Sequence record: OR892555.1
Reading direction: 5' to 3' (one strand)
Source: Escherichia phage EP1
Length of the DNA: 64,000 nt
Positions 1-27,850 of this stretch are shown in pieces (position 1 is the first letter of the stretch; every line of letters begins with the position of its first letter). The position numbers were made by a program, and so were the translations under genes. Under the pieces are notes generated by a model. It made no database searches. It was given only the letters and a program-made list of their open reading frames with translations, and was not told the origin of the DNA.

Positions 1-21
1 ACCATTATTTGTAGTATACAT
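1..21 (-). CDS. 5' end of a minus-strand gene running off the left edge of the window (first 7 codons only)
   Basis: ATG at 19-21 read on minus strand, directly preceded by the conserved GGAG-attcaaa leader of the repeated cassette; frame open to position 1. Confidence 0.3.
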
Positions 22-69
22 TTTGAATCTCCAGTTTAGGAAGTGGGCTTGCTTGCCCGTCTGATAAGT

Positions 70-98
70 AATTTACTTGTTTTCGTTACCAGTTGCAA
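70..98 (-). promoter_or_regulatory. sigma70-like early promoter (TTGCAA-17 nt-TAAATT on minus strand), followed by GC hairpin leader (45-58) and GGAG RBS
   Basis: hexamers and spacing read directly; same architecture as the copy at 2609-2687. Confidence 0.4.
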
Positions 99-112
99 GC
101 CCTTTTATGAAT

Positions 113-436
113 TTATTTTCGTTTGCTTATTTCGTGAACAATAATAGCGTGATAATCTTTCAAGTCACTGATATTTAAAGCATTTAATAAAGTATTATAA
201 TCATCAACTAACTGAAAATCACCGCTTAAAATGTCGCTAATCTGATATGTGTTAGCCTTGAATCTGAAGCCCATCTCTAAACGCTTTAATTGTTCTACGT
301 TTAAACGCTCTAGGAAGGACGTCACAAGATTATTATTGATTTGCTTTGTGGTTGCATCACTTGCCACCTGATGCGCTTTATAGGCTTTATACAGTGCTAA
401 AATAGCAATGAATAAGGCAACTCCAGAAATTAACAT
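113..436 (-). CDS. hypothetical early protein with N-terminal hydrophobic membrane anchor
   Basis: 107-aa ORF; N-terminus ISGVALFIAILALY is hydrophobic. Confidence 0.55.
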   Translation of the reverse strand: MLISGVALFIAILALYKAYKAHQVASDATTKQINNNLVTSFLERLNVEQLKRLEMGFRFKANTYQISDILSGDFQLVDDYNTLLNALNISDLKDYHAIIVHEISKRK

Positions 437-726
437 GATGACTTACCTTTGTGAAATAGTTTACCAGTGTGACTAATCTCAAAAGAATCTACCATATCCT
501 TTGTGGATTTAACAGAACTTTTATTTGCATTATCATAGATATCTACCTGAAGCAATGGCTTTTTGTATTCTTTACAAAAGTTCCAAATACAGATAACAAC
601 TTCTTTACCATTGATTTTTCCGTGATACCATTCTGTCACTTCATGAGTCCGGCGCATAGATTCTACAAATTTGATATCTTGTAAAAGCTTGCTCAATTTT
701 GAGCGTACATTTGCAGCAATAAACAT
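430..726 (-). CDS. hypothetical early protein
   Basis: 98-aa ORF; ATG at 726 preceded by GGAG-attcaaaa leader of cassette copy 1. Confidence 0.5.
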   Translation of the reverse strand: MFIAANVRSKLSKLLQDIKFVESMRRTHEVTEWYHGKINGKEVVICIWNFCKEYKKPLLQVDIYDNANKSSVKSTKDMVDSFEISHTGKLFHKGKSSC

Positions 727-778
727 TTTTTGAATCTCCAGTTTAGGATTGATTTGATAAATCTCTTTATCTGGGGCT

Positions 779-807
779 ATCTTATCAGCCTGATAACCCC
801 ATGTAAA
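779..807 (-). promoter_or_regulatory. sigma70-like early promoter, cassette copy 1 (minus strand TTTACA-17 nt-TAAGAT), conserved leader to ATG at 726
   Basis: conserved -35 and TAnnAT -10 with conserved spacer length across copies while spacer sequence varies. Confidence 0.45.
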
Positions 808-816
808 GCAATTTAT

Positions 817-1329
817 TTAGATATCGAAAATATTCATCATTGAATCTTTCAAGGCTTCTAAACGTTCCATTACTTCAGATTCTGCGTCTGCGTTGCTTAC
901 TTCCTCTTTTAGTCTATCCTCTAAATCGTCGCCGTCACTATAGCACCAATCGAAAGCGTAGCCAAGATAAAAACTATCTAAAACCGTATTCCCGTTTGCA
1001 TCGACAACCTTTGCAGATAGGTTATATTCTGAAGCCTCTAAATCCCTTTCTAGTTCTTTCTGTAAGCTGATGTAAGCCTCTTGTGATGGATTTTCCCGAC
1101 CTTGTTTTGCATAGTCGCTAGAAAGCTGTTTAAGGCTATAGCGTAAAGGGATTGCATATTTAAACTCGTTACGCTGGAAGTTAGGATTCTTAATAGTTAC
1201 CCCGCCTTGATGGTTATCTGTAAATTCCCAATCACTGATGCTATGGCTTGCTTCATAGCAGTTAACAGCTTCATAGATGATAGAGAATTTTTCTTTTACA
1301 ACTTCAAAGGTGGCGTCTACAGTTCTCAT
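817..1329 (-). CDS. hypothetical early protein
   Basis: 170-aa ORF, ATG abuts cassette copy 2 leader (GGAG, 7-nt spacer). Confidence 0.55.
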   Translation of the reverse strand: MRTVDATFEVVKEKFSIIYEAVNCYEASHSISDWEFTDNHQGGVTIKNPNFQRNEFKYAIPLRYSLKQLSSDYAKQGRENPSQEAYISLQKELERDLEASEYNLSAKVVDANGNTVLDSFYLGYAFDWCYSDGDDLEDRLKEEVSNADAESEVMERLEALKDSMMNIFDI

Positions 1330-1379
1330 TTTGAATCTCCAGTTTAGGATTGATTTGGTAAAGCTCTTTATCTGGGGCT

Positions 1380-1409
1380 ATACTAGCAAACTTTATAACC
1401 CCATGTAAA
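1380..1409 (-). promoter_or_regulatory. sigma70-like early promoter, cassette copy 2 (TTTACA-18 nt-TAGTAT on minus strand)
   Basis: near-identical ~90 bp element to 1675-1760 and 2143-2230. Confidence 0.45.
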
Positions 1410-1416
1410 GCACTTT

Positions 1417-1674
1417 TTAGATTAAATTGCCAGTTAATGATAAGTGCATTTTGTAACCTTGTTTAGTGTAAACATTAGTTTTACCGATAGTCTTTACACC
1501 TTTAAAAAGATTGTAAGAGCTATGCTTTAAGGTTAATTGCTGGTCACACTTTACACCCCATCTTACAGCAGAATCTTTCCCGTTGTCAATCACTTTTCCG
1601 TCTAAATCTTTTGCCAGTAAACGAGCGTTATCACGAGTTTTTGCATTCACTACTACGTTTTTGATGATAGCCAT
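1417..1674 (-). CDS. hypothetical early protein
   Basis: 85-aa ORF with cassette leader and GGAG RBS. Confidence 0.5.
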   Translation of the reverse strand: MAIIKNVVVNAKTRDNARLLAKDLDGKVIDNGKDSAVRWGVKCDQQLTLKHSSYNLFKGVKTIGKTNVYTKQGYKMHLSLTGNLI

Positions 1675-1723
1675 TTTTGAATCTCCAGTTTAGGTTAGTG
1701 ATAAAATCTCTTTATCTGGGGCT

Positions 1724-1753
1724 ATACTAGCAAACTTTATAACCCCATGTAAA
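1724..1753 (-). promoter_or_regulatory. sigma70-like early promoter, cassette copy 3 (TTTACA-18 nt-TAGTAT)
   Basis: repeat copy; hexamers read on minus strand. Confidence 0.45.
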
Positions 1754-1761
1754 GCACTTTA

Positions 1762-2142
1762 TCAGTTAATTTTAAAGATAGTTACATAACCATCACTACC
1801 AATCATCTGAGAAACTCCAGCTTTCTCGACATTGTAACCCATTTTATCAAGATGGTAAATAGCATCTTCATAACCATATGCCGCGCCTTGATAGCGTCTC
1901 TTCTCACATTTTATCAAGGTTTTACCACGTCCAGCAAGTGCATTAATGATAGCTTTATCACCTGATAAACTACCGTCTAGCATAGTTGCGCGGTAATGGT
2001 TTATTTTGTTGCCATTCACATCATACTTAAAATTGTATGCGTGAACAACAATTATTTTACCTTTGAATTTTTCATCAAGTGTTTTCTCCAGTACATCACG
2101 AAAATTTTCTTTGCTGATGAACTTAGGTGCACGATATTTCAT
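1762..2142 (-). CDS. hypothetical early protein
   Basis: 126-aa ORF with cassette leader. Confidence 0.55.
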   Translation of the reverse strand: MKYRAPKFISKENFRDVLEKTLDEKFKGKIIVVHAYNFKYDVNGNKINHYRATMLDGSLSGDKAIINALAGRGKTLIKCEKRRYQGAAYGYEDAIYHLDKMGYNVEKAGVSQMIGSDGYVTIFKIN

Positions 2143-2193
2143 TTTGAATCTCCAGTTTAGGATTGATTTAGTAAAGCTCTTTATCTGGGGCTT

Positions 2194-2223
2194 ATGGTAT
2201 CAATCTTTTAAGCCCCTTGTAAA
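2194..2223 (-). promoter_or_regulatory. sigma70-like early promoter, cassette copy 4 (TTTACA-18 nt-TACCAT); perfect inverted repeat GGGGCTTA/TAAGCCCC spans it
   Basis: repeat copy; -10 differs in sequence but keeps TAnnAT and position. Confidence 0.45.
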
Positions 2224-2228
2224 GTACT

Positions 2229-2390
2229 TTATGCAATAATTTTTATAACTTCTTTTAGTGTGATGTTTTCGCCATTTGTCAAGGCTAAGCATTTGTTACC
2301 AGTGCATGACAAGTAACTAAACGAGACTTTACCAGTTTTAGAAAATCCGTCAAGCCCTTTGTAAGTAATGATAGAGTTTTCTTTTATCAT
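2229..2390 (-). CDS. possible small ORF (53 aa) missed by the 60-aa ORF track
   Basis: ATG at 2388-2390 to TAA at 2229-2231 translated by hand (MIKENSIITYKGLDGF...); fills a gap between genes but has no clear Shine-Dalgarno. Confidence 0.25.
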   Translation of the reverse strand: MIKENSIITYKGLDGFSKTGKVSFSYLSCTGNKCLALTNGENITLKEVIKIIA

Positions 2391-2401
2391 TTGTCAAGCC
2401 C

Positions 2402-2608
2402 TTAAACATCATAATAATAGGTTGCTGTATGTCGAATATGTTTTCTTGTGTGAGTTGTCAAGTAACAAGCTGAATTAATTGATGTATTTACATACATATC
2501 ATAATCTTTCTCTGATATACGTTGCCAAACGTCACAAATCAACATATAAAAACGACGATGTTTTGTTTCAGTATTATCTACAATCATTAATTCACGTTGA
2601 TATAACAT
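2402..2608 (-). CDS. hypothetical early protein
   Basis: 68-aa ORF immediately downstream of cassette copy 5. Confidence 0.45.
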   Translation of the reverse strand: MLYQRELMIVDNTETKHRRFYMLICDVWQRISEKDYDMYVNTSINSACYLTTHTRKHIRHTATYYYDV

Positions 2609-2658
2609 TTTCAGATTCTCCAGTTTAGGAAGTGGGCTTGCTTGCCCGTCTGATGCAA

Positions 2659-2687
2659 ATACTAAATAACTTTGTTTTGCAGGTCAA
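2659..2687 (-). promoter_or_regulatory. sigma70-like early promoter, cassette copy 5 (TTGACC-17 nt-TAGTAT), GC hairpin leader at 2634-2647
   Basis: hexamers and spacing read directly on minus strand. Confidence 0.4.
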
Positions 2688-2779
2688 GCAAATTTTTAAA
2701 AATATTTTTAGGAATTGCCAGAGGAGAACGCGCACACGACTACCACAAAACATAGCACAAATCAAGAATTATTTTTCAG

Positions 2780-3042
2780 TTCTCTACAGATTTTTCTCTT
2801 GACTTTTGGGGAGAGGGGGAGTAAGAGGGGGAGAGGGGCAGGGCTGGCACTATCTACCTACCTGCACAATTCTAAAATGATTTTTCTTGCCCGACACTCG
2901 CCGGGTCTGCACGTTTTGAAAATGAAAAAGCTCTTTGGAGTCCACCTGCACAAATTGAAAATGAATTTTCCCTTTGGATTTCAAAATTTTCTCTACAGAT
3001 TTCTGTCCAGACTTTTACCTGCACAATTTTAAAATGAAAAAG
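2780..3042. repeat. ORF-free region with four copies of a ~20-25 bp motif (CCTGCACAAnTTnnAAAATGAA; 2861-2880, 2907-2930, 2945-2965, 3018-3042) and two copies of TTCTCTACAGATTT (2780-2795, 2989-3005)
   Basis: direct repeats at irregular spacing; no credible ORF on the transcribed strand. Confidence 0.6.
2808..2846 (+). repeat. polypurine G-rich tract (GGGGAGAGGGGGAGTAAGAGGGGGAGAGGGGCAGGG) with five G-runs
   Basis: read directly; stands out in an AT-rich genome. Confidence 0.6.
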
Positions 3043-3110
3043 CCCTCCTTACCTGAAAATTTTACCAGATAAGAAAGGCTTAGTCTATTGTGAATATGCT
3101 ACAGAGTTTC

Positions 3111-3893
3111 TTAGTTCTTTGCAGCTAAGAACTTGATATTGGAAATGTCTACAATTGCTTCAGCATCTTTCTCATTTGCTGCAAGAATGTACACATCAGG
3201 TTCACTTCCAAATGTCGCTGCACGTTGCATACTGCCTTTCAACGGTGGGGTAACTTGAGCGTTACTTAGAGACATTCTCTCAACCGGAGGGTTACTCCGA
3301 TGTACCTTGTTCTTACGATGCCTGAAGAGGGTAACTCCGTCTTCGTTGACAACGGCTACCCCTGCAAAGTATTGTGGTTCACTGTGATTACCCCATGTTG
3401 ACAGAGTATTAAACATTGCCTCTTCAAATACGTAAAGGTAAACATCAACATCTTTCAAGATGTGATTCATGATTACCACAACAGCTTTCGGGTCAAGTCC
3501 ACCAATACCTGCACCAATCATTGGGAGACCAACTTTCTTCAGTTGATTCACTTTGCAGTACTGGTTAAGGCTCAACAAAGCACTCTCAAGAGCATCGTAA
3601 CGAGCATCTTTACCAGTCTTCAACTGAGTGTACAGGTTAGCAATACGGCCTTGTTTAAGACGTGCTACAGAGAGTTTACCAAGCAGTTTCTGACAAGGTT
3701 TATGCTCTCTTCCTCCTGCTACACGGTAGACTTCGGCATCAGTTTCATAGGCTTTTGGGTAACCTTTAGAAATCTTGTCAGCAATACCTGCACCCATCAG
3801 GTTCATACAGTTGCAACCGTGACCAATGATATCAAACTTACCTTTTTCAAAGTCTGCGAAGATATCACCTTTGATGACTTTTACAATACCCAT
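3111..3893 (-). CDS. macro-domain protein (ADP-ribose binding/processing) with ~90-aa C-terminal extension
   Basis: N-terminal GDIF...DIIGHGCNCMNLMGAGIADKI and later GLPMIGAGIGG match macro-domain glycine-rich signatures. Confidence 0.8.
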   Translation of the reverse strand: MGIVKVIKGDIFADFEKGKFDIIGHGCNCMNLMGAGIADKISKGYPKAYETDAEVYRVAGGREHKPCQKLLGKLSVARLKQGRIANLYTQLKTGKDARYDALESALLSLNQYCKVNQLKKVGLPMIGAGIGGLDPKAVVVIMNHILKDVDVYLYVFEEAMFNTLSTWGNHSEPQYFAGVAVVNEDGVTLFRHRKNKVHRSNPPVERMSLSNAQVTPPLKGSMQRAATFGSEPDVYILAANEKDAEAIVDISNIKFLAAKN

Positions 3894-3894
3894 C

Positions 3895-4095
3895 TTACCA
3901 TTTCTCCCATGATTCTTTATCTTCAGAAGGTTTTACACGTTGACCTTCATGGTCTACCCAGATTCCACCACAACCTTCACAGAGTGTTGGCATAGCATAA
4001 CCAGCTTTGAACTCTTCTTCAGAGATAAGACCTCTCAAGTCTCCTGTATCACGTCCAAACAGTTCGATGGAACAATCTTTGCAGAAATCAGCCAT
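3895..4095 (-). CDS. small zinc-ribbon protein (two CxxC pairs)
   Basis: 66-aa ORF with CKDC ... CEGC. Confidence 0.5.
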   Translation of the reverse strand: MADFCKDCSIELFGRDTGDLRGLISEEEFKAGYAMPTLCEGCGGIWVDHEGQRVKPSEDKESWEKW

Positions 4096-4315
4096 TTGAT
4101 ATTACCTCTTGGAAGAATGTACCTTTCAAATCCCATTCAGCTTTATAATCAGTCAATGTGTTAGTATCGAACATTGTATAATATTTGTAATCACCATTCT
4201 TAAACTGGTCATGCAGTGATGGGTTGCAGAACGGAGCTACTGTATCCCTGTCCAAGAATACAGCACCAGATAACACTTTGCGTGTATTTTTACACCTTAC
4301 TAATATTGCTTTCAT
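4088..4315 (-). CDS. hypothetical protein
   Basis: 75-aa ORF in the minus-strand gene array. Confidence 0.45.
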   Translation of the reverse strand: MKAILVRCKNTRKVLSGAVFLDRDTVAPFCNPSLHDQFKNGDYKYYTMFDTNTLTDYKAEWDLKGTFFQEVISNG

Positions 4316-4616
4316 AAAGTACCTTCTCTGTTAACTCGTACAAGTCTACATGTTCAATGCCAGCAATGTCAATACCAAGTTTAGCATATCGCTCTTTGAT
4401 GCCTTCTTTATTTTGAAATATGAGACACCAATGATTTCTTAAAGACTCTTCCAGTTTATCTACACAATCATGAAAGGTTGGTGTGTCACCTCTTGTACCA
4501 ACCATTGCCACAACACCATAAAGAAACTCACCATTACCATATGTGACTTGTGCTACACCAATATCTTTCTCACTATCTTGGATGACAGCTACAAAGGTTT
4601 TACCGTTCAATTCCAT
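4290..4616 (-). CDS. hypothetical protein
   Basis: 108-aa ORF. Confidence 0.5.
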   Translation of the reverse strand: MELNGKTFVAVIQDSEKDIGVAQVTYGNGEFLYGVVAMVGTRGDTPTFHDCVDKLEESLRNHWCLIFQNKEGIKERYAKLGIDIAGIEHVDLYELTEKVLYESNISKV

Positions 4617-4773
4617 CAGAGACTACCTCTTCAATTTGCTGTAGAATTGCTTCTGAAGTTTCTTCCCACATCGTCATACTGTCAATATCACCACAACAAC
4701 TTTCTCCAGCAACGTTGTAACGTGCTTGACCATATTCTTTGATGAGTTCAATCAACTTCTCTTTGCTTGACAT
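4600..4773 (-). CDS. possible small acidic ORF (57 aa) missed by the ORF track
   Basis: ATG at 4771-4773 preceded by GAGGAAG; fills the 4616-4775 gap and overlaps the next start by 17 nt. Confidence 0.3.
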   Translation of the reverse strand: MSSKEKLIELIKEYGQARYNVAGESCCGDIDSMTMWEETSEAILQQIEEVVSDGIER

Positions 4774-4774
4774 G

Positions 4775-5044
4775 TTACTTCCTCGTTTTGAGAACTGCCA
4801 TAATTTCTTTGGTATCTTCTAAGAACCATGTGTAGTGATTCTCTTTTATTTCTGGATGAGTGTCAATCTTTAATTTGCAATCTCTTCCAGTATCTTTCAG
4901 TTGAGTTGTGATACCCTTCATAAAGATATGGCACATCACATCATCCATAACCATTGGCATGAAGTCAATGCGCATGTAAGTATCTTTTGGTCTTGGAAGA
5001 AGTAAATAACCTTCTGTATAGAACAGTTCTGTCTCTTGACTCAT
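4775..5044 (-). CDS. hypothetical protein
   Basis: 89-aa ORF. Confidence 0.5.
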   Translation of the reverse strand: MSQETELFYTEGYLLLPRPKDTYMRIDFMPMVMDDVMCHIFMKGITTQLKDTGRDCKLKIDTHPEIKENHYTWFLEDTKEIMAVLKTRK

Positions 5045-5310
5045 TGCTGCTTATTCCCTAACAAAATCATATCAATCAAATTATTGGCTTTCATCGTACA
5101 CTGATAGTACCCATCACGATAAAATTCAAGGGCTTGTGACAGGTCTGTGCCTGTATTACCCTTGACAACGTAGCGTGATTCTTCTTGAGTATACTTATCA
5201 CTTTCACTTACTTGGGAGTTTTTGAACGTAGAGTTCACTTTGTTCATTGAACACCCTGACATAAGTATCAGTAGCACAAATGTTATAAAACTCTGGCTTA
5301 GTCTTTTCAT
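5041..5310 (-). CDS. putative lipoprotein, candidate outer-membrane spanin subunit
   Basis: signal peptide ending in lipobox-like LMSGC; gene overlaps the 3' end of the preceding membrane-protein gene. Confidence 0.4.
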   Translation of the reverse strand: MKRLSQSFITFVLLILMSGCSMNKVNSTFKNSQVSESDKYTQEESRYVVKGNTGTDLSQALEFYRDGYYQCTMKANNLIDMILLGNKQQ

Positions 5311-5551
5311 ATGTCAATACCTCTTTTGTGTGTTTGTTTTTAGCAAGCACGTCTTTCAAATCATTTTTGTAACTGGAGCTAAGATTTGCTAAACCTTCTT
5401 GGTAAGCATCCTTAGCAACACTTACAAGTTTCTGGTTAGTTAACTCTGTTTGAGTGACTTGGTAATCCTTGTAAGAATAACCCCCCCAGACACCTACACC
5501 AATCAGAAAAACAACTATGAAAGCGGCTTGACAGAACTCTTTAAATTTCAT
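5204..5551 (-). CDS. type-II membrane protein, candidate inner-membrane spanin subunit
   Basis: N-terminal TM (AAFIVVFLIGVGVWGG) then hydrophilic domain; overlapped by the lipoprotein gene in another frame. Confidence 0.4.
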   Translation of the reverse strand: MKFKEFCQAAFIVVFLIGVGVWGGYSYKDYQVTQTELTNQKLVSVAKDAYQEGLANLSSSYKNDLKDVLAKNKHTKEVLTYEKTKPEFYNICATDTYVRVFNEQSELYVQKLPSK

Positions 5552-5567
5552 TTGTCAATCTCCTAAA

Positions 5568-5592
5568 ACGAAAAAGGCTCCCGAAGGAGCCT
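5568..5592 (-). terminator. rho-independent terminator (GGCTCC-cgaa-GGAGCC then U-run on minus strand)
   Basis: perfect 6-bp GC stem, tetraloop, T-tract read directly. Confidence 0.6.
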
Positions 5593-5603
5593 GTATCATA
5601 ACC

Positions 5604-6068
5604 TTAACCGAGGACTTTAGCAAGGACATTTGCAGCCATCGTCGAAGCTTTTGCAGCAGCAGCTACGCCAGCTTTGATAGTGCTATCCTTAATGGCAGAT
5701 ACCGTTGCAGCATCAGTAAAGAGATATGTGGTAGTTTGTGAACCACTTGTAAAGGAAAGCATAAGAGCAGTTTCCAGATTGAAAGAACGGTACGGAGCAC
5801 CGGACTGTACAATTCCTTTAGCACCCAACTCTGAAGCCATACCCATGTCATAGATGGTCATCAGGTTTTCTTTATGTGCTGTAGTAGAACCGACACCTTT
5901 AACGTGTTTTGAAACGTTCAGCAGAGCACGATATTCACGGATATCACCATCAGCTTTTACATTGACAGCACGAAAGATTTTGCCATCAAAGTTGCTTTTA
6001 ATGATATCACGAACAACCTGTGATTTGTTTGCTGATGCGTCGATAGCTACTGTAATAATGTTTTGCAT
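5604..6068 (-). CDS. hypothetical protein (154 aa, Ala/Ser/Thr-rich C-terminus)
   Basis: ORF with own terminator downstream; no recognisable motif. Confidence 0.5.
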   Translation of the reverse strand: MQNIITVAIDASANKSQVVRDIIKSNFDGKIFRAVNVKADGDIREYRALLNVSKHVKGVGSTTAHKENLMTIYDMGMASELGAKGIVQSGAPYRSFNLETALMLSFTSGSQTTTYLFTDAATVSAIKDSTIKAGVAAAAKASTMAANVLAKVLG

Positions 6069-6080
6069 GATTTCTCTCTC

Positions 6081-6776
6081 TTAGTGTTTGATAAGCATTG
6101 TGTTAATTTCTGGAAGGATTCGTTTAACCTTCTCAACATTCCTTACTGTATCTTCTATAAAACATACTACATCATAGTACGGAAGAATGCAAGACTGAAT
6201 CATACGAACTTTCAAACTTTCTGCACTGATTCTATTTGAACCAAAACCACGCATAAAAAGCATGTAGTCAGTCACGATATGCTTGTCAATAAACAAGTGG
6301 GTTGGTACACGTTGAGACTCACCACGAGCAGTTAAAACACCGATTGCAGCACTTTTATGGATGCCTGAAATGATGTTAAAGATGTACGTAGGTTGTGCAT
6401 CAACTGACTCAATCAAGTTTGTATACTGTGACAGAGTGCCATCTTCCAGATATGTTGAGTTTGTTGGCTTATCAAACTTAGTGAGAACACCATCAATATC
6501 TGTTAAAACCATTGGCTTCTTCATATCAAGGTCTTTTGCAACCAAGATTAAGCTGTCACGTTTAACGGCTACTGACTTACCTGTTTGAAGGTCTGTACAG
6601 AGAACTGTTTCAGCAGATGAATGAAAGTTTTTGAAGTCACATTCAACAACCCTTGCAGTATCTGCAAAGTCTTCTTTCATAAGGTCTGTCCAGCTTGCAG
6701 CACTAATATCAATAGCCAGAGGATTGATATCGTAAGCGTGACAAAATACCTTATCCAATTGTTTTAATTCGCTCAT
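6081..6776 (-). CDS. HAD-superfamily phosphatase/nucleotidase-like protein
   Basis: DIDGVL (DxDG motif I), GVLTAR (motif II) and FIEDTVRN (motif IV-like); track start is TTG at 6818, first in-frame ATG is 6776 by frame arithmetic; start uncertain. Confidence 0.35.
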   Translation of the reverse strand: MSELKQLDKVFCHAYDINPLAIDISAASWTDLMKEDFADTARVVECDFKNFHSSAETVLCTDLQTGKSVAVKRDSLILVAKDLDMKKPMVLTDIDGVLTKFDKPTNSTYLEDGTLSQYTNLIESVDAQPTYIFNIISGIHKSAAIGVLTARGESQRVPTHLFIDKHIVTDYMLFMRGFGSNRISAESLKVRMIQSCILPYYDVVCFIEDTVRNVEKVKRILPEINTMLIKH

Positions 6777-7302
6777 GTTTAACCTTTTTGATGTTTGTTG
6801 CAAACTCACATTGAGCAAGCACCTTCATGTTATTGTACACATCTTGAGAGTATTGTCTAGCTTTTGGAATGTGGTATGAGTATCCTGCATTATATGAAGC
6901 CAAGACACGCTGTAAAGAGTATTTCCCATTAGGATTACCATGAACCTTAGTCCAGAACTGAAGCTCTTTGTGTGTCTCCTTTGCAGCATAATCGAAGTCT
7001 CTGACAAGTTTCTTCTTAGCTACATTTGGGTTAACTTTGTTACGCTTTACAACAGTCTTCAAGTGATTCTGGAACAATCCATAATCGTGAGTCTTTTTAT
7101 TTTCAAGACGAAGACCTAACTCTGACTCTTGTAAGGCTATAGCGGCTAAGGTTAATCCCCAACCTTTACCCATCTCTTTCTCACCGTAGTGATAAGCTTT
7201 AAGCATGTTTGTTTTCTGACTGATGGATAATTCTGGACAGTCTGAAGCGACTGCCAGATGTGCTGTTAAGAATAAGCACAAACCTAAAATGAACTTCTTC
7301 AT
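6751..7302 (-). CDS. secreted lytic transglycosylase (SLT domain) with cleavable signal peptide; candidate endolysin
   Basis: signal peptide MKKFILGLCLFLTAHLAVA; SLT motifs ES, GLFQ and SYNAG in order. Confidence 0.7.
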   Translation of the reverse strand: MKKFILGLCLFLTAHLAVASDCPELSISQKTNMLKAYHYGEKEMGKGWGLTLAAIALQESELGLRLENKKTHDYGLFQNHLKTVVKRNKVNPNVAKKKLVRDFDYAAKETHKELQFWTKVHGNPNGKYSLQRVLASYNAGYSYHIPKARQYSQDVYNNMKVLAQCEFATNIKKVKHERIKTIG

Positions 7303-7361
7303 TGGTTCTCCTATTTAGTTCAACATGCAAGCAATTATACACTAATCTTCACAAAACACAA

Positions 7362-7388
7362 ATAAAAAAGGCTGCCGAAGCAGCCCTT
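7362..7388 (-). terminator. rho-independent terminator (GGCTGC-cgaa-GCAGCC then U-run) after rIIB-like gene
   Basis: stem-loop and T-tract read directly. Confidence 0.6.
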
Positions 7389-7402
7389 TAAGAATTTACT
7401 TA

Positions 7403-27712: not shown

Positions 27713-27850
27713 TTAAGCAGATTTTTTAGCTGCTTTACGTGCTGTCTTACCAGTGCGAACACGTTTTGCTTCATAGTGTGCAGCAGATTTACCAGCAGTT
27801 GCTTTCAGTGAATCGCCAAATACTTTTTCAAACGCTTTAGAATGTTTCAT
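27713..27850 (-). CDS. possible small basic protein (45 aa) missed by the ORF track
   Basis: ATG overlaps upstream stop as ATGA; GGAGA RBS; translation MKHSKAFEKVFGDSLKATAGKSAAHYEAKRVRTGKTARKAAKKSA. Confidence 0.35.
   Translation of the reverse strand: MKHSKAFEKVFGDSLKATAGKSAAHYEAKRVRTGKTARKAAKKSA

What the first reader, a model, noticed from the sequence alone, without database searches (positions are those of the whole stretch)
113..5044. Early small-ORF arrays are the most likely place for unrecognised host-takeover or anti-defence proteins
Both arrays, the cassette-driven one at 113-2608 and the one at 3895-5044, consist of short ORFs with no recognisable enzymatic motifs. They include a membrane-anchored protein (113-436), a zinc-ribbon protein (3895-4095) and three hand-found ORFs below the track cutoff (2229-2390, 4600-4773, plus 27713-27850 elsewhere). 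In lytic phages such early arrays are where inhibitors of restriction, CRISPR, CBASS or Thoeris and host shut-off factors usually sit. None can be assigned by eye.
Basis: inference. Interest (0 to 1): 0.5.

Follow-up and report, generated by a model that had tools for sequence, protein, structure and literature searches.

The report
Small early phage genes, mostly unassigned
This stretch of a Felix O1-like E. coli phage carries a dozen real, conserved small genes of unknown function; the only gene here with a supported role is a neighbouring enzyme gene related to one that T4 uses to undo a bacterial DNA-tagging defence.

Summary
The window is a Suspvirus (Ounavirinae, Felix O1-like) coliphage, 96% identical to EcSzw-2. 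All 12 small minus-strand ORFs are real genes: they are syntenic across three genera with dN/dS 0.05-0.49. The first array (113-2608) is driven by repeated promoter + stem-loop + leader cassettes found nowhere else in the 64 kb. The second "array" (3895-5044) has no cassettes. It is the tightly overlapping middle of an operon running from the spanins to a macrodomain gene.

No small ORF matches any Pfam, NCBIfam, PADLOC or PDB family. Two were modelled at high confidence: the 170-aa acidic protein and the 66-aa Cys4 protein. Neither has a fold neighbour. Both families are spread across several lytic phage families.

Published work on the relative Bas63 places the orthologs of 817-5044 in a genome segment reported nonessential. 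None is a validated counter among 12 defence systems, and Bas63 is restriction-sensitive.

The one assignable gene is the macrodomain (3111-3893) between the arrays. It is 40% identical to a T4-type Tk.4/AdfM, a reported anti-DarTG2 factor.

The anti-defence reading is therefore plausible for the locus, shown by homology for one neighbouring gene, and untested for the small ORFs. The organisation is ordinary for a lytic phage. Interest is modest.

The parts
22..125 (-). Type-B cassette upstream of the next array gene, whose ATG is at 21 and which runs off the window. Weak promoter TTGCAA-N17-TAAATT (98-70), leader hairpin GGGC..GCCC, leader/SD motif at 40-25.
   Evidence: 98% identical to the 2614-2654 copy (family D8)
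113..436 (-). 107-aa protein with an N-terminal transmembrane-like anchor. It has no cassette of its own and overlaps the upstream gene. Ortholog of Felix O1 ORF18 and Bas63 g103.
   Evidence: (dN/dS 0.12-0.23); phrog_4375, unknown function
430..726 (-). 98-aa basic protein. Ortholog of Felix O1 ORF17 and Bas63 g102. Also present in Erwinia Kolesnikvirus at 37% identity.
   Evidence: phrog_4401
727..830 (-). Type-A cassette: -35 TTTACA, stem-loop GGGGTTAT..ATAGCCCC nested in the spacer and -10, TG-extended -10, and the leader/SD motif CCTAAACTGGAGATTC.
817..1329 (-). 170-aa acidic protein (pI 4.4) with strongly conserved motifs. Ortholog of Felix O1 ORF16 (RT-PCR maximum at 5 min) and Bas63 g101. 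Its family reaches PVP-SE1-like, Klebsiella and Erwinia phages. The high-confidence model has no fold neighbour.
1330..1433 (-). Type-A cassette.
1417..1674 (-). 85-aa basic protein. Accessory: absent from Felix O1.
   Evidence: phrog_5089 plus three weaker unknown-function PHROGs
1675..1778 (-). Type-A cassette.
1762..2142 (-). 126-aa basic protein. Accessory: absent from Felix O1.
   Evidence: phrog_4495
2143..2246 (-). Type-A cassette whose stem carries compensatory changes (GGGGCTTA..TAAGCCCC).
2229..2390 (-). 53-aa protein with no cassette of its own. Present in SUSP2, EcSzw-2, Sf18 and ESh22; no match in the Bas63, Felix O1 or Mordin loci.
   Evidence: (dN/dS about 0.3)
2402..2608 (-). 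68-aa protein, the first gene of the cassette array. Ortholog of Felix O1 ORF15 and Bas63 g98.
2609..2712 (-). Type-B cassette: promoter TTGACC-N17-TAGTAT (2687-2659), leader hairpin, leader/SD motif at 2629-2614.
2713..3039 (-). Conserved non-coding region. It holds four direct copies of about 27 nt, TTTTCATTTTnAAAnnGTGCAGGT (3037-3018, 2964-2945, 2925-2906, 2880-2861), a C-rich tract, and invariant A-rich blocks.
   Evidence: 84% mean identity over three genera; 5 matches against 0.3 expected; no covariation; no Rfam match
3040..3081 (-). Intrinsic terminator ending the spanin-to-macrodomain operon. Equivalent to Felix O1 t13.
   Evidence: PMC3185647 Table 2
3111..3893 (-). Macrodomain protein of 260 aa: an ALC1-like macrodomain (residues about 1-157) plus an unassigned C-terminal extension of about 100 aa. 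Homolog of T4-type Tk.4/AdfM.
3895..4095 (-). 66-aa acidic Cys4 protein (MADFCxxCS...CEGCG..VDH). Its stop codon lies 1 nt before the macrodomain ATG. Ortholog of Felix O1 ORF12 (RT-PCR maximum at 10 min) and Bas63 g94. The family is also in T5-like, rV5-like, Pseudomonas and Stenotrophomonas phages.
4088..4315 (-). 75-aa protein. Fast-evolving (35-54% identity, dN/dS 0.31-0.39) and absent from SUSP2.
4290..4616 (-). 108-aa acidic protein. Ortholog of Felix O1 ORF10 and Bas63 g92.
4600..4773 (-). 57-aa acidic protein. No match in the Bas63, Sf18 or Felix O1 loci. In Mordin it matches the C-terminal part of a 150-aa protein.
   Evidence: (phrog_25740, C-terminal match)
4775..5044 (-). 89-aa protein. 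Its start overlaps the o-spanin stop by 4 nt. Ortholog of Felix O1 ORF8 and Bas63 g91.
5041..5551 (-). Overlapping i-spanin (5204-5551) and o-spanin (5041-5310, lipobox LMSGC). These are the first genes of the operon that contains the second array.
5575..5592 (-). Intrinsic terminator just upstream of the spanins. Equivalent to Felix O1 t5.
   Evidence: PMC3185647 Table 2

Best explanation
The interval is the distal end of the long early/middle gene block of a Felix O1-like (Suspvirus) phage. That block runs rIIA/B, PNK, spanins, small genes, macrodomain, cassette array. The interval contains two differently organised sets of accessory genes.

(1) A cassette array, 2712 down to 22 and continuing beyond the window start. 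It has six near-identical regulatory modules, five of which precede genes inside the window. Each module consists of a host sigma-70 promoter with an extended -10, a stem-loop nested in the promoter, and an invariant 16-nt leader/Shine-Dalgarno. The genes they drive are unrelated to one another. Host RNA polymerase should transcribe them strongly straight after DNA entry (inferred). The repeated modules provide homology for gain and loss of whole gene cassettes. This is seen directly: Felix O1 has one cassette where this phage has three more and three extra genes.

(2) A translationally coupled operon, 5551 down to 3111: spanins, five small genes, then a macrodomain enzyme.

The small proteins are most likely non-enzymatic accessory factors that act by binding host or defence components under particular host conditions. 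This is inferred from small size, lack of catalytic motifs, location in a genome segment reported dispensable in a relative, and patchy gene content. Their targets are unknown.

The one mechanistic assignment is the macrodomain. It is a homolog of T4-type Tk.4/AdfM. It most likely removes ADP-ribose placed on thymidine in phage DNA by the DarT2 toxin of DarTG2, and so counters that defence. Homology is shown; activity is inferred.
For: Identity and synteny.

Real genes under purifying selection.

Cassettes:
- The leader motif occurs 6 times, only in the array, against 0.01 expected. The loci fetched from relatives hold 3-12 copies each, 8-12 in all but Felix O1 and Bas63.
- Promoters.
- The stem is kept by compensatory change.
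- The window's array ORFs and the six SUSP2 continuation genes compared with them are not paralogs.

Cassette-level indels: Felix O1 lacks the 85-, 126- and 53-aa genes between ORF15 and ORF16. SUSP2 lacks the 75-aa gene. Bas63 lacks the 53- and 57-aa genes.

Operon structure: gene overlaps or 1-nt gaps run from 5551 to 3111, with terminators only at 5592-5575 and 3081-3040.

Expression: Felix O1 RT-PCR maxima are at 5 min (ORF13, ORF16), 10 min (ORF12) and 25 min (ORF10, ORF17) (PMC3185647).

Dispensability: the Bas63 segment of about 46-66 kb is reported uniformly nonessential on four hosts (bioRxiv 10.1101/2024.10.10.617714).

Macrodomain:
- Pfam Macro 5e-8.
- Profile against PDB: TARG1 4.8e-10, M. 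tuberculosis DarG 4e-7, T. aquaticus DarG 1e-4, SCO6735 5e-3.
- DarG models in NCBIfam and PADLOC: 7e-12 and 8e-13.
- 40% identity (E 2e-24) to the Tk.4 ortholog of a Tequatrovirus, with identical NLYTQ and IGAGIG motifs.
- T4 tk.4 knockout is sensitised to DarTG2 (bioRxiv 10.1101/2025.11.20.689424).
- The invariant Gln aligned with TARG1 Lys84 is the arrangement of SCO6735. There Q85A abolishes dT-ADPr hydrolysis (PMC9411070).
Against: - No direct evidence ties any of the 12 small ORFs to host takeover or counter-defence.
- Most are conserved and syntenic across three genera. Some carry very strongly conserved motifs, which is also what phage-intrinsic regulators would show.
- None of their Bas63 orthologs (g91-g103) is named in the text or listed among the validated counters or triggers of the 12-system screen. 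The gene-level tables were not available to me.
- Bas63 is sensitive to several restriction-modification systems.
- Felix O1 RT-PCR timing within the arrays is mixed, 5 to 25 min.
- Transcription start sites were not mapped.
- Macrodomain activity on ADP-ribosylated DNA is untested here. The protein carries a 100-aa C-terminal extension that T4 Tk.4 lacks.
Confidence: 0.55

Rival explanations
1. The small ORFs are mainly phage-intrinsic regulators or helpers, such as transcription or translation modulators, replication or lysis-timing accessories, or chaperones. They are not host-takeover or anti-defence factors.
For: - Gene order and most genes are conserved over Suspvirus, Felixounavirus and Mooglevirus; some extend to Kolesnikvirus.
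- dN/dS is low, and the 170-aa family has long invariant motifs.
- The second array is co-transcribed with the spanins.
- None is a validated counter in the Bas63 12-system screen.
Against: - The Bas63 orthologs lie in a segment reported uniformly nonessential on four hosts.
- Four of the twelve genes come and go between close relatives.
- Two families are shared with unrelated lytic phage families that have different core machinery. That argues for a target outside the phage.
Confidence: 0.25
2. The acidic 170-aa early protein (817-1329) is an Ocr/ArdA-like DNA mimic that blocks restriction or BREX.
For: - pI 4.4, with 34 acidic residues out of 170.
- Its own strong promoter cassette.
- The Felix O1 ortholog peaks at 5 min.
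- In a 157-kb metagenomic phage the homolog sits in a small-ORF array with NADAR and T7 0.6/1.1-like genes.
Against: - No PDB sequence hit with an 88-sequence profile.
- The conserved motifs include basic and polar loops, not only acidic surface.
Confidence: 0.07
3. The macrodomain is an ADP-ribose-1''-phosphate phosphatase (Poa1p-like) that works with the nearby polynucleotide kinase in RNA/tRNA repair. It is not an anti-DarT enzyme.
For: - PHROG and GenBank label it 'phosphatase'.
- Its N-terminal 60 residues match an ADP-ribose 1''-phosphate phosphatase in the PDB.
- The PNK gene lies 2.2 kb upstream in the same gene block.
- The PhageMaP authors note a slight Tpt1-like fold for Bas63 gp107 in the array continuation.
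Against: - The T4 homolog was the single hit for DarTG2 in a genome-wide screen, and its knockout is DarTG2-sensitive.
- The best profile matches are TARG1 and DarG.
- No RNA ligase is annotated in the first 50 kb of Bas63.
- gp107 shows no Tpt1 signal by sequence.
Confidence: 0.1
4. Some of the short ORFs, especially those below the usual gene-calling cutoff, are chance ORFs rather than genes.
For: - They are only 53 and 57 aa long.
- 2229-2390 has only a weak Shine-Dalgarno sequence.
- EcSzw-2's annotation omits the 53-aa ORF.
Against: - Orthologs with synonymous-biased divergence exist in other genera (dN/dS 0.2-0.5).
- Both are annotated in SUSP2.
- Each has its own PHROG family.
Confidence: 0.03

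Closest known systems
PeSLs (promoter-early stem-loops) of T4-like phages (Arbiol et al. 2010, PMC2839356; Comeau et al. 2014, PMC4122927)
   Same: - Short repeated composite motifs that join a sigma-70-type early promoter to a stem-loop. The reported PST/T4 consensus TTTACW-N17-TAYWAT fits the TTTACA...TAGTAT found here.
- They sit upstream of small genes of unknown function in plastic regions.
- They are associated with whole-gene indels between relatives.
   Different: - Here they occur in an Ounavirinae genome, not a T4-like one.
- The stem-loop is nested inside the promoter (spacer and -10) and has no U-run, so it is not a promoter-terminator pair.
- The module also includes an invariant 16-nt leader/SD.
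- Recombination at the modules is inferred from indel positions, not demonstrated.
SPO1 host-takeover module and the early small-gene regions of T7 and T5 (from my own knowledge, not checked in a paper here)
   Same: A run of small genes of mostly unknown function, each or nearly each behind a strong host-type early promoter and a good ribosome-binding site. Dispensable in the laboratory.
   Different: - No sequence relationship.
- No host shut-off or toxicity data exist for these genes.
- Location relative to the genome ends was not examined.
- Felix O1 RT-PCR timing is mixed.
AdfM (anti-DarT factor macro): T4 Tk.4 (bioRxiv 10.1101/2025.11.20.689424) and chimallivirus AdfM (PMC13309987)
   Same: - An orphan phage macrodomain of the TARG1/DarG (ALC1-like) class.
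- 40% identical to a Tequatrovirus Tk.4 ortholog, with the same HGCNC, NLYTQ and IGAGIG motifs.
   Different: - 260 aa with an unassigned C-terminal 100 aa, against 155 aa.
- Like Tk.4, but unlike DarG2 and the chimallivirus AdfM (K80/K78), it has Gln at the catalytic-Lys position.
- No activity data exist for Ounavirinae.
SCO6735 of Streptomyces coelicolor (PMC9411070)
   Same: An ALC1-like macrodomain with Gln in place of the TARG1 K84 / DarG K80 lysine. SCO6735 cleaves thymidine-linked ADP-ribose on DNA and protects against DarT.
   Different: - Only a distant sequence match (profile E 5e-3).
- The Gln equivalence is by transitivity through the TARG1 alignment.
- It is a bacterial housekeeping protein, not a phage one.

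Membership tests
AdfM / ALC1-like (TARG1-DarG) macrodomain | Macro domain detectable by a curated model | tested here: met
   Pfam PF01661, E 5e-8, 33.3 bits against a cutoff of 22
AdfM / ALC1-like (TARG1-DarG) macrodomain | Closest solved relatives belong to the TARG1/DarG class | tested here: met
   Profile against PDB: TARG1 4.8e-10, M. tuberculosis DarG 4e-7, T. aquaticus DarG 1e-4, SCO6735 5e-3. PADLOC DarG 8e-13.
AdfM / ALC1-like (TARG1-DarG) macrodomain | Homology to the experimentally tested T4 Tk.4/AdfM | tested here: met
   40% identity over 134 aa, E 2e-24, to the gene next to vs in Tequatrovirus DalCa. T4-like phages are hit across the family. The tested T4 protein itself was not aligned.
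AdfM / ALC1-like (TARG1-DarG) macrodomain | DarG2-type catalytic lysine (T. aquaticus DarG K80 / TARG1 K84) | tested here: not met
   An invariant Gln (Q90, NLYTQ) aligns with TARG1 K84. The same Gln is in the Tk.4 ortholog and, according to PMC9411070, in SCO6735.
AdfM / ALC1-like (TARG1-DarG) macrodomain | Full-length DarG antitoxin architecture (macrodomain plus DarT-binding C-terminal domain) | tested here: not met
   The NCBIfam DarG model matches only positions 3-149 of 338 and scores 45 bits against a cutoff of 250. The C-terminal 100 aa has no family match.
AdfM / ALC1-like (TARG1-DarG) macrodomain | Removes DarT2 ADP-ribose from DNA and protects the phage from DarTG2 | not testable with these tools
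   Needs plaque assays and enzymology.
PeSL-type mobile regulatory cassette | Repeated sigma-70-like early promoter | tested here: met
   Four TTTACA-N17/18 promoters with -10 hexamers TAGTAT (twice), TAAGAT and TACCAT, each preceded by TG, plus TTGACC-N17-TAGTAT
PeSL-type mobile regulatory cassette | Associated stem-loop | tested here: met
   8-10 bp stem of -12.5 to -15.2 kcal/mol, kept by compensatory changes in one copy. It is nested in the promoter rather than preceding it.
PeSL-type mobile regulatory cassette | Stem-loop acts as a terminator for the upstream gene | tested here: inconclusive
   No U-run follows the stem, and the terminator scan does not report these sites.
PeSL-type mobile regulatory cassette | Flanks small genes that differ between related phages | tested here: met
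   Felix O1 has a single cassette where this phage has three extra genes. There are further presence/absence differences in SUSP2 and Bas63.
Zinc ribbon | Four conserved Cys ligands in two CxxC pairs | tested here: met
   C5, C39 and C42 are invariant and C8 is above 90% in 96 sequences.
Zinc ribbon | Both CxxC pairs on beta-hairpin knuckles; match to a curated zinc-ribbon family | tested here: not met
Characterised anti-defence proteins (any with a Pfam/NCBIfam model or a solved structure) | Sequence similarity of the 12 small ORFs | tested here: not met
   No significant Pfam, NCBIfam or PDB-sequence match; PHROGs gives only unknown-function families. No dedicated anti-defence library (dbAPIS, AntiDefenseFinder, EVADES) was available.
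Characterised anti-defence proteins (any with a Pfam/NCBIfam model or a solved structure) | Fold similarity | tested here: not met

The most novel reading that the evidence does not exclude
The 66-aa Cys4 protein belongs to a large family: 880 clusters at 50% identity, in Felix O1-like, T5-like, rV5-like, Pseudomonas and Stenotrophomonas phages, with no fold neighbour. It could be a new, widespread component of the phage ADP-ribose counter-defence toolkit.

Three observations point that way. Here the gene is translationally coupled to the AdfM-like macrodomain. Two of the 20 long family members examined are fused to DUF4326, a domain proposed to process ADP-ribose phosphates. It is shared between otherwise unrelated lytic phages.

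It might target or regulate the macrodomain, or independently neutralise an ADP-ribosyltransferase-type or nucleotide-signalling defence. The 170-aa protein, also without a fold neighbour, could likewise be a new class of early host-interaction factor.
Probability: 0.12. Interest if true: 0.6.

Novelty: new member of a known kind. Interest (0 to 1): 0.3.

Why it matters
Felix O1-like phages are used in diagnostics and therapy, and about two thirds of their genes have no assigned function. Three results narrow where to look.

First, these small genes are real, promoter-equipped and probably dispensable, and they do not resemble any characterised protein.

Second, two of them belong to families that cross phage-family boundaries, which makes them the sensible first targets.

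Third, the adjacent macrodomain can be annotated as a probable anti-DarTG2 factor rather than a 'phosphatase'. That predicts Ounavirinae resistance to DarTG2-carrying hosts.

The cassette structure also extends the PeSL-type modular shuffling idea beyond T4-like phages.

Tried and rejected
- Five ORFs concatenated with GS linkers as one homolog query. The linker swamped the word index and the search returned nothing, so one of the three searches was wasted.
- Single-sequence homolog search for the Cys4 protein found only 7 close relatives. The exhaustive representative search was needed to see the family.
- All 12 ORFs concatenated against PDB sequences gave only linker artefacts.
- An 88-sequence profile of the 170-aa family against PDB gave nothing.
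- PADLOC gave nothing for nine small ORFs.
- Rfam on the whole window and a tRNA scan gave nothing.
- Consensus RNA folding of the conserved non-coding region showed no covariation beyond the terminator, so an ncRNA reading is not supported.
- Neighbours of the Cys4 gene in T5-like, rV5-like and Hafnia phages carry no informative domains, apart from the Hafnia phage's own macrodomain gene two genes downstream of it.
- Pseudomonas phage 119X is unannotated.
- Array-continuation genes of SUSP2 and Bas63, including gp107, show no Pfam or PDB signal, so the Tpt1-like lead could not be confirmed.
- No paralogy was found between the array genes compared.
- The PhageMaP supplementary tables were not available.

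Full report
**What the window is.**
Megablast puts the first 5.6 kb at 96% identity to Escherichia phage EcSzw-2 and 95% to SUSP2 (Suspvirus, Ounavirinae). About 250 further Felix O1-like genomes match at 78-88%. All genes in 1-7400 are on the minus strand. By synteny with SUSP2, Bas63 (JohannRWettstein), Sf18, Mordin and Felix O1, the order of transcription is as follows:
- rIIA and rIIB
- an SLT-like protein
- polynucleotide kinase
- a 154-aa protein
- terminator
- i- and o-spanin
- five small genes
- macrodomain gene
- terminator
- 500 nt of non-coding DNA
- the cassette array, which runs off the window start and continues for at least seven more genes in SUSP2

**Checking the observation.**
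Orthologs exist in three genera. Nei-Gojobori dN/dS against Bas63, Sf18, Mordin and ESh22 is 0.05-0.49 for all twelve, including the 53-aa and 57-aa ORFs. These are therefore genes, not chance ORFs. The 45-aa ORF at 27713-27850 is a basic peptide that overlaps its upstream neighbour by 4 nt. Its first 26-27 residues match at 77-100% identity in 253 phage records. Only 113-436 has a transmembrane-like segment. The array genes compared are not paralogs of one another.

**The cassettes.**
Four genes (starts at 726, 1329, 1674, 2142) are preceded by the same ~90-nt module:
- TTTACA
- a stem, GGGGTTAT...ATAGCCCC, that encloses the spacer and overlaps the TG-extended -10 (TAGTAT)
- AGATAAAGAG
- the invariant leader CCTAAACTGGAGATTCAAA, then ATG

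The copy at 2223-2194 keeps the stem through compensatory changes, GGGGCTTA...TAAGCCCC. Two further genes (starts at 2608 and 21) use a second module type. It has a different promoter and a small GGGC...GCCC leader hairpin, but the same leader motif. The 16-nt leader occurs six times in the window, only in the array, against 0.01 expected. The loci fetched from relatives hold 3-12 copies each.

Gene content changes by whole cassettes:
- Felix O1 goes directly from ORF15 to ORF16 with one cassette. This phage has the 53-, 126- and 85-aa genes and three more cassettes at that point.
- Bas63 lacks the 53-aa and 57-aa genes.
- SUSP2 lacks the 75-aa gene.

The closest described analogue is the PeSL of T4-like phages. 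The PST/T4 promoter consensus, TTTACW-N17-TAYWAT, fits these promoters (PMC4122927). The differences are that the stem-loop here is nested in the promoter and has no U-run.

**The second 'array' is organised differently.**
From the i-spanin start (5551) to the macrodomain stop (3111), genes overlap by 4-107 nt or are 1 nt apart. No cassette or strong intergenic promoter is present. Intrinsic terminators lie only at 5592-5575 and 3081-3040, which correspond to Felix O1 t5 and t13. It is one operon that includes lysis genes and an enzyme gene. Its early timing is not established. Felix O1 RT-PCR gives maxima at 5 min for ORF13 (macrodomain) and ORF16 (170 aa), 10 min for ORF12 (Cys4), and 25 min for ORF6, ORF10 and ORF17 (PMC3185647; mapping).

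**What the small proteins are.**
None of the twelve has a significant hit in Pfam, NCBIfam or PDB sequences. PADLOC, run on nine of them, gave nothing. Each hits only an unknown-function PHROG. I spent the capped tools on the two most promising.

**Experimental evidence from relatives.**
- PhageMaP on Bas63 reports the ~46-66 kb segment as uniformly nonessential on four E. coli hosts. By the coordinates, that segment holds the orthologs of window 817-7300.
- Against 12 defence systems, the validated counters were g77, g79/g80, g84/g85 and g130, and the validated triggers g40 and g123. None lies in these arrays, and g91-g103 are not mentioned. Gene-level tables were not available.
[quoted passage not shown] That argues against a potent Ocr-like factor.

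**The gene that can be assigned.**
The macrodomain protein (3111-3893) lies between the two arrays and is annotated 'phosphatase'. It belongs to the TARG1/DarG class. It is 40% identical (E 2e-24) to the Tk.4 ortholog of a Tequatrovirus, with identical HGCNC, NLYTQ and IGAGIG motifs. T4 tk.4 was the single hit for DarTG2 in a genome-wide transposon screen, its knockout is DarTG2-sensitive, and it was named AdfM (bioRxiv 10.1101/2025.11.20.689424). A chimallivirus AdfM removes DarT2 ADP-ribose from DNA (PMC13309987).

The invariant Gln aligned with the TARG1/DarG catalytic Lys is the arrangement described for SCO6735. SCO6735 hydrolyses thymidine-linked ADP-ribose, and its Q85A mutant is inactive (PMC9411070). 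I therefore read this gene as a probable AdfM-type anti-DarTG2 enzyme with an extra, unassigned C-terminal 100 residues. The alternative is a Poa1p-like phosphatase acting with the nearby PNK in RNA repair. That is less likely: no RNA ligase or Tpt1 signal was found.

**Verdict.**
- *In its favour:* host-type promoters, accessory behaviour, cassette-wise turnover, cross-family spread of two genes, and a bona fide counter-defence homolog in the same locus.
- *Against:* strong conservation and synteny, no hit in the one defence screen done on orthologs, restriction sensitivity of Bas63, and a second 'array' that is simply part of a spanin-macrodomain operon.

The organisation is a new example of known kinds: PeSL-like cassettes, an early accessory module, and an AdfM homolog. 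Interest is modest. The most valuable leads are the Cys4 family and the 170-aa family.

Noticed in passing
window 2713-3039 (minus strand): About 330 nt of non-coding DNA between the macrodomain terminator and the first cassette promoter is 84% identical across three genera. That is more conserved than several flanking genes. It carries four direct ~27-nt repeats, TTTTCATTTTnAAAnnGTGCAGGT, found nowhere else in the 64 kb, plus a C-rich tract. There is no Rfam hit and no covariation, so protein-binding sites (operators or iterons) seem more likely than an RNA. Several GenBank records annotate dubious plus-strand ORFs here.
   Followed up: partly
window 3895-4095; L005 3465-3665; L006 3477-3677; L007 3490-3690: The Cys4 protein family (MADFCxxCS...CEGCG..VDH) is very large: 880 clusters at 50% identity. 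It crosses phage families. In T5-like phages it sits among tRNA genes. Many members carry a second putative C-x4-5-C-x3-H site after the VDH motif. A few are fused to DUF4326 or DUF3846. It has no Pfam family.
   Followed up: partly
L012 2716-3243 and 5001-6081 (metagenomic 157-kb phage contig): A 41%-identical homolog of the 170-aa protein lies in another small-ORF array, next to a NADAR-domain gene (the AdfN type of anti-DarT1 enzyme) and T7 0.6/1.1-like genes. This suggests the family travels with early counter-defence loci.
   Followed up: no
L003 4208-4750 (Bas63 g107) = L001 776-1333 (SUSP2 gp101), just beyond the window start: PhageMaP reports g107 as conditionally essential on E. coli S17-1, with a slight structural resemblance to the NAD-binding domain of RNA 2'-phosphotransferase (an ADP-ribosyltransferase-fold protein). 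I found no sequence signal for this. If true, the array would encode an ART-like protein in the same locus as the macrodomain.
   Followed up: partly
window 27713-27850 (minus strand): A 45-aa lysine/arginine/alanine-rich peptide. Its first 26-27 residues match at 77-100% identity in 253 phage records, and it is coupled to the upstream 98-aa gene by a 4-nt overlap. Function unknown.
   Followed up: partly
one search hit H8 (GU169904 'Staphylococcus phage SA1'); one search hit H133 (MG065668 'Campylobacter phage A126'): Records labelled as Staphylococcus and Campylobacter phages contain Felix O1-like sequence at 80-89% identity. They are probably mixed or mislabelled database entries, not cross-phylum relatives.
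   Followed up: no
window 6081-6818 and 6751-7302: The polynucleotide-kinase ORF matches only the HAD phosphatase part of PNKP in Pfam (E 0.003). The listed ORF starts at a TTG, and the PHROG model aligns from residue 15. It overlaps the 3' end of an SLT-like protein that has a signal-peptide-like N-terminus. A near-consensus promoter (TTTACA-N16-TATAAT, 6916-6889) lies inside that SLT-like gene.
   Followed up: no
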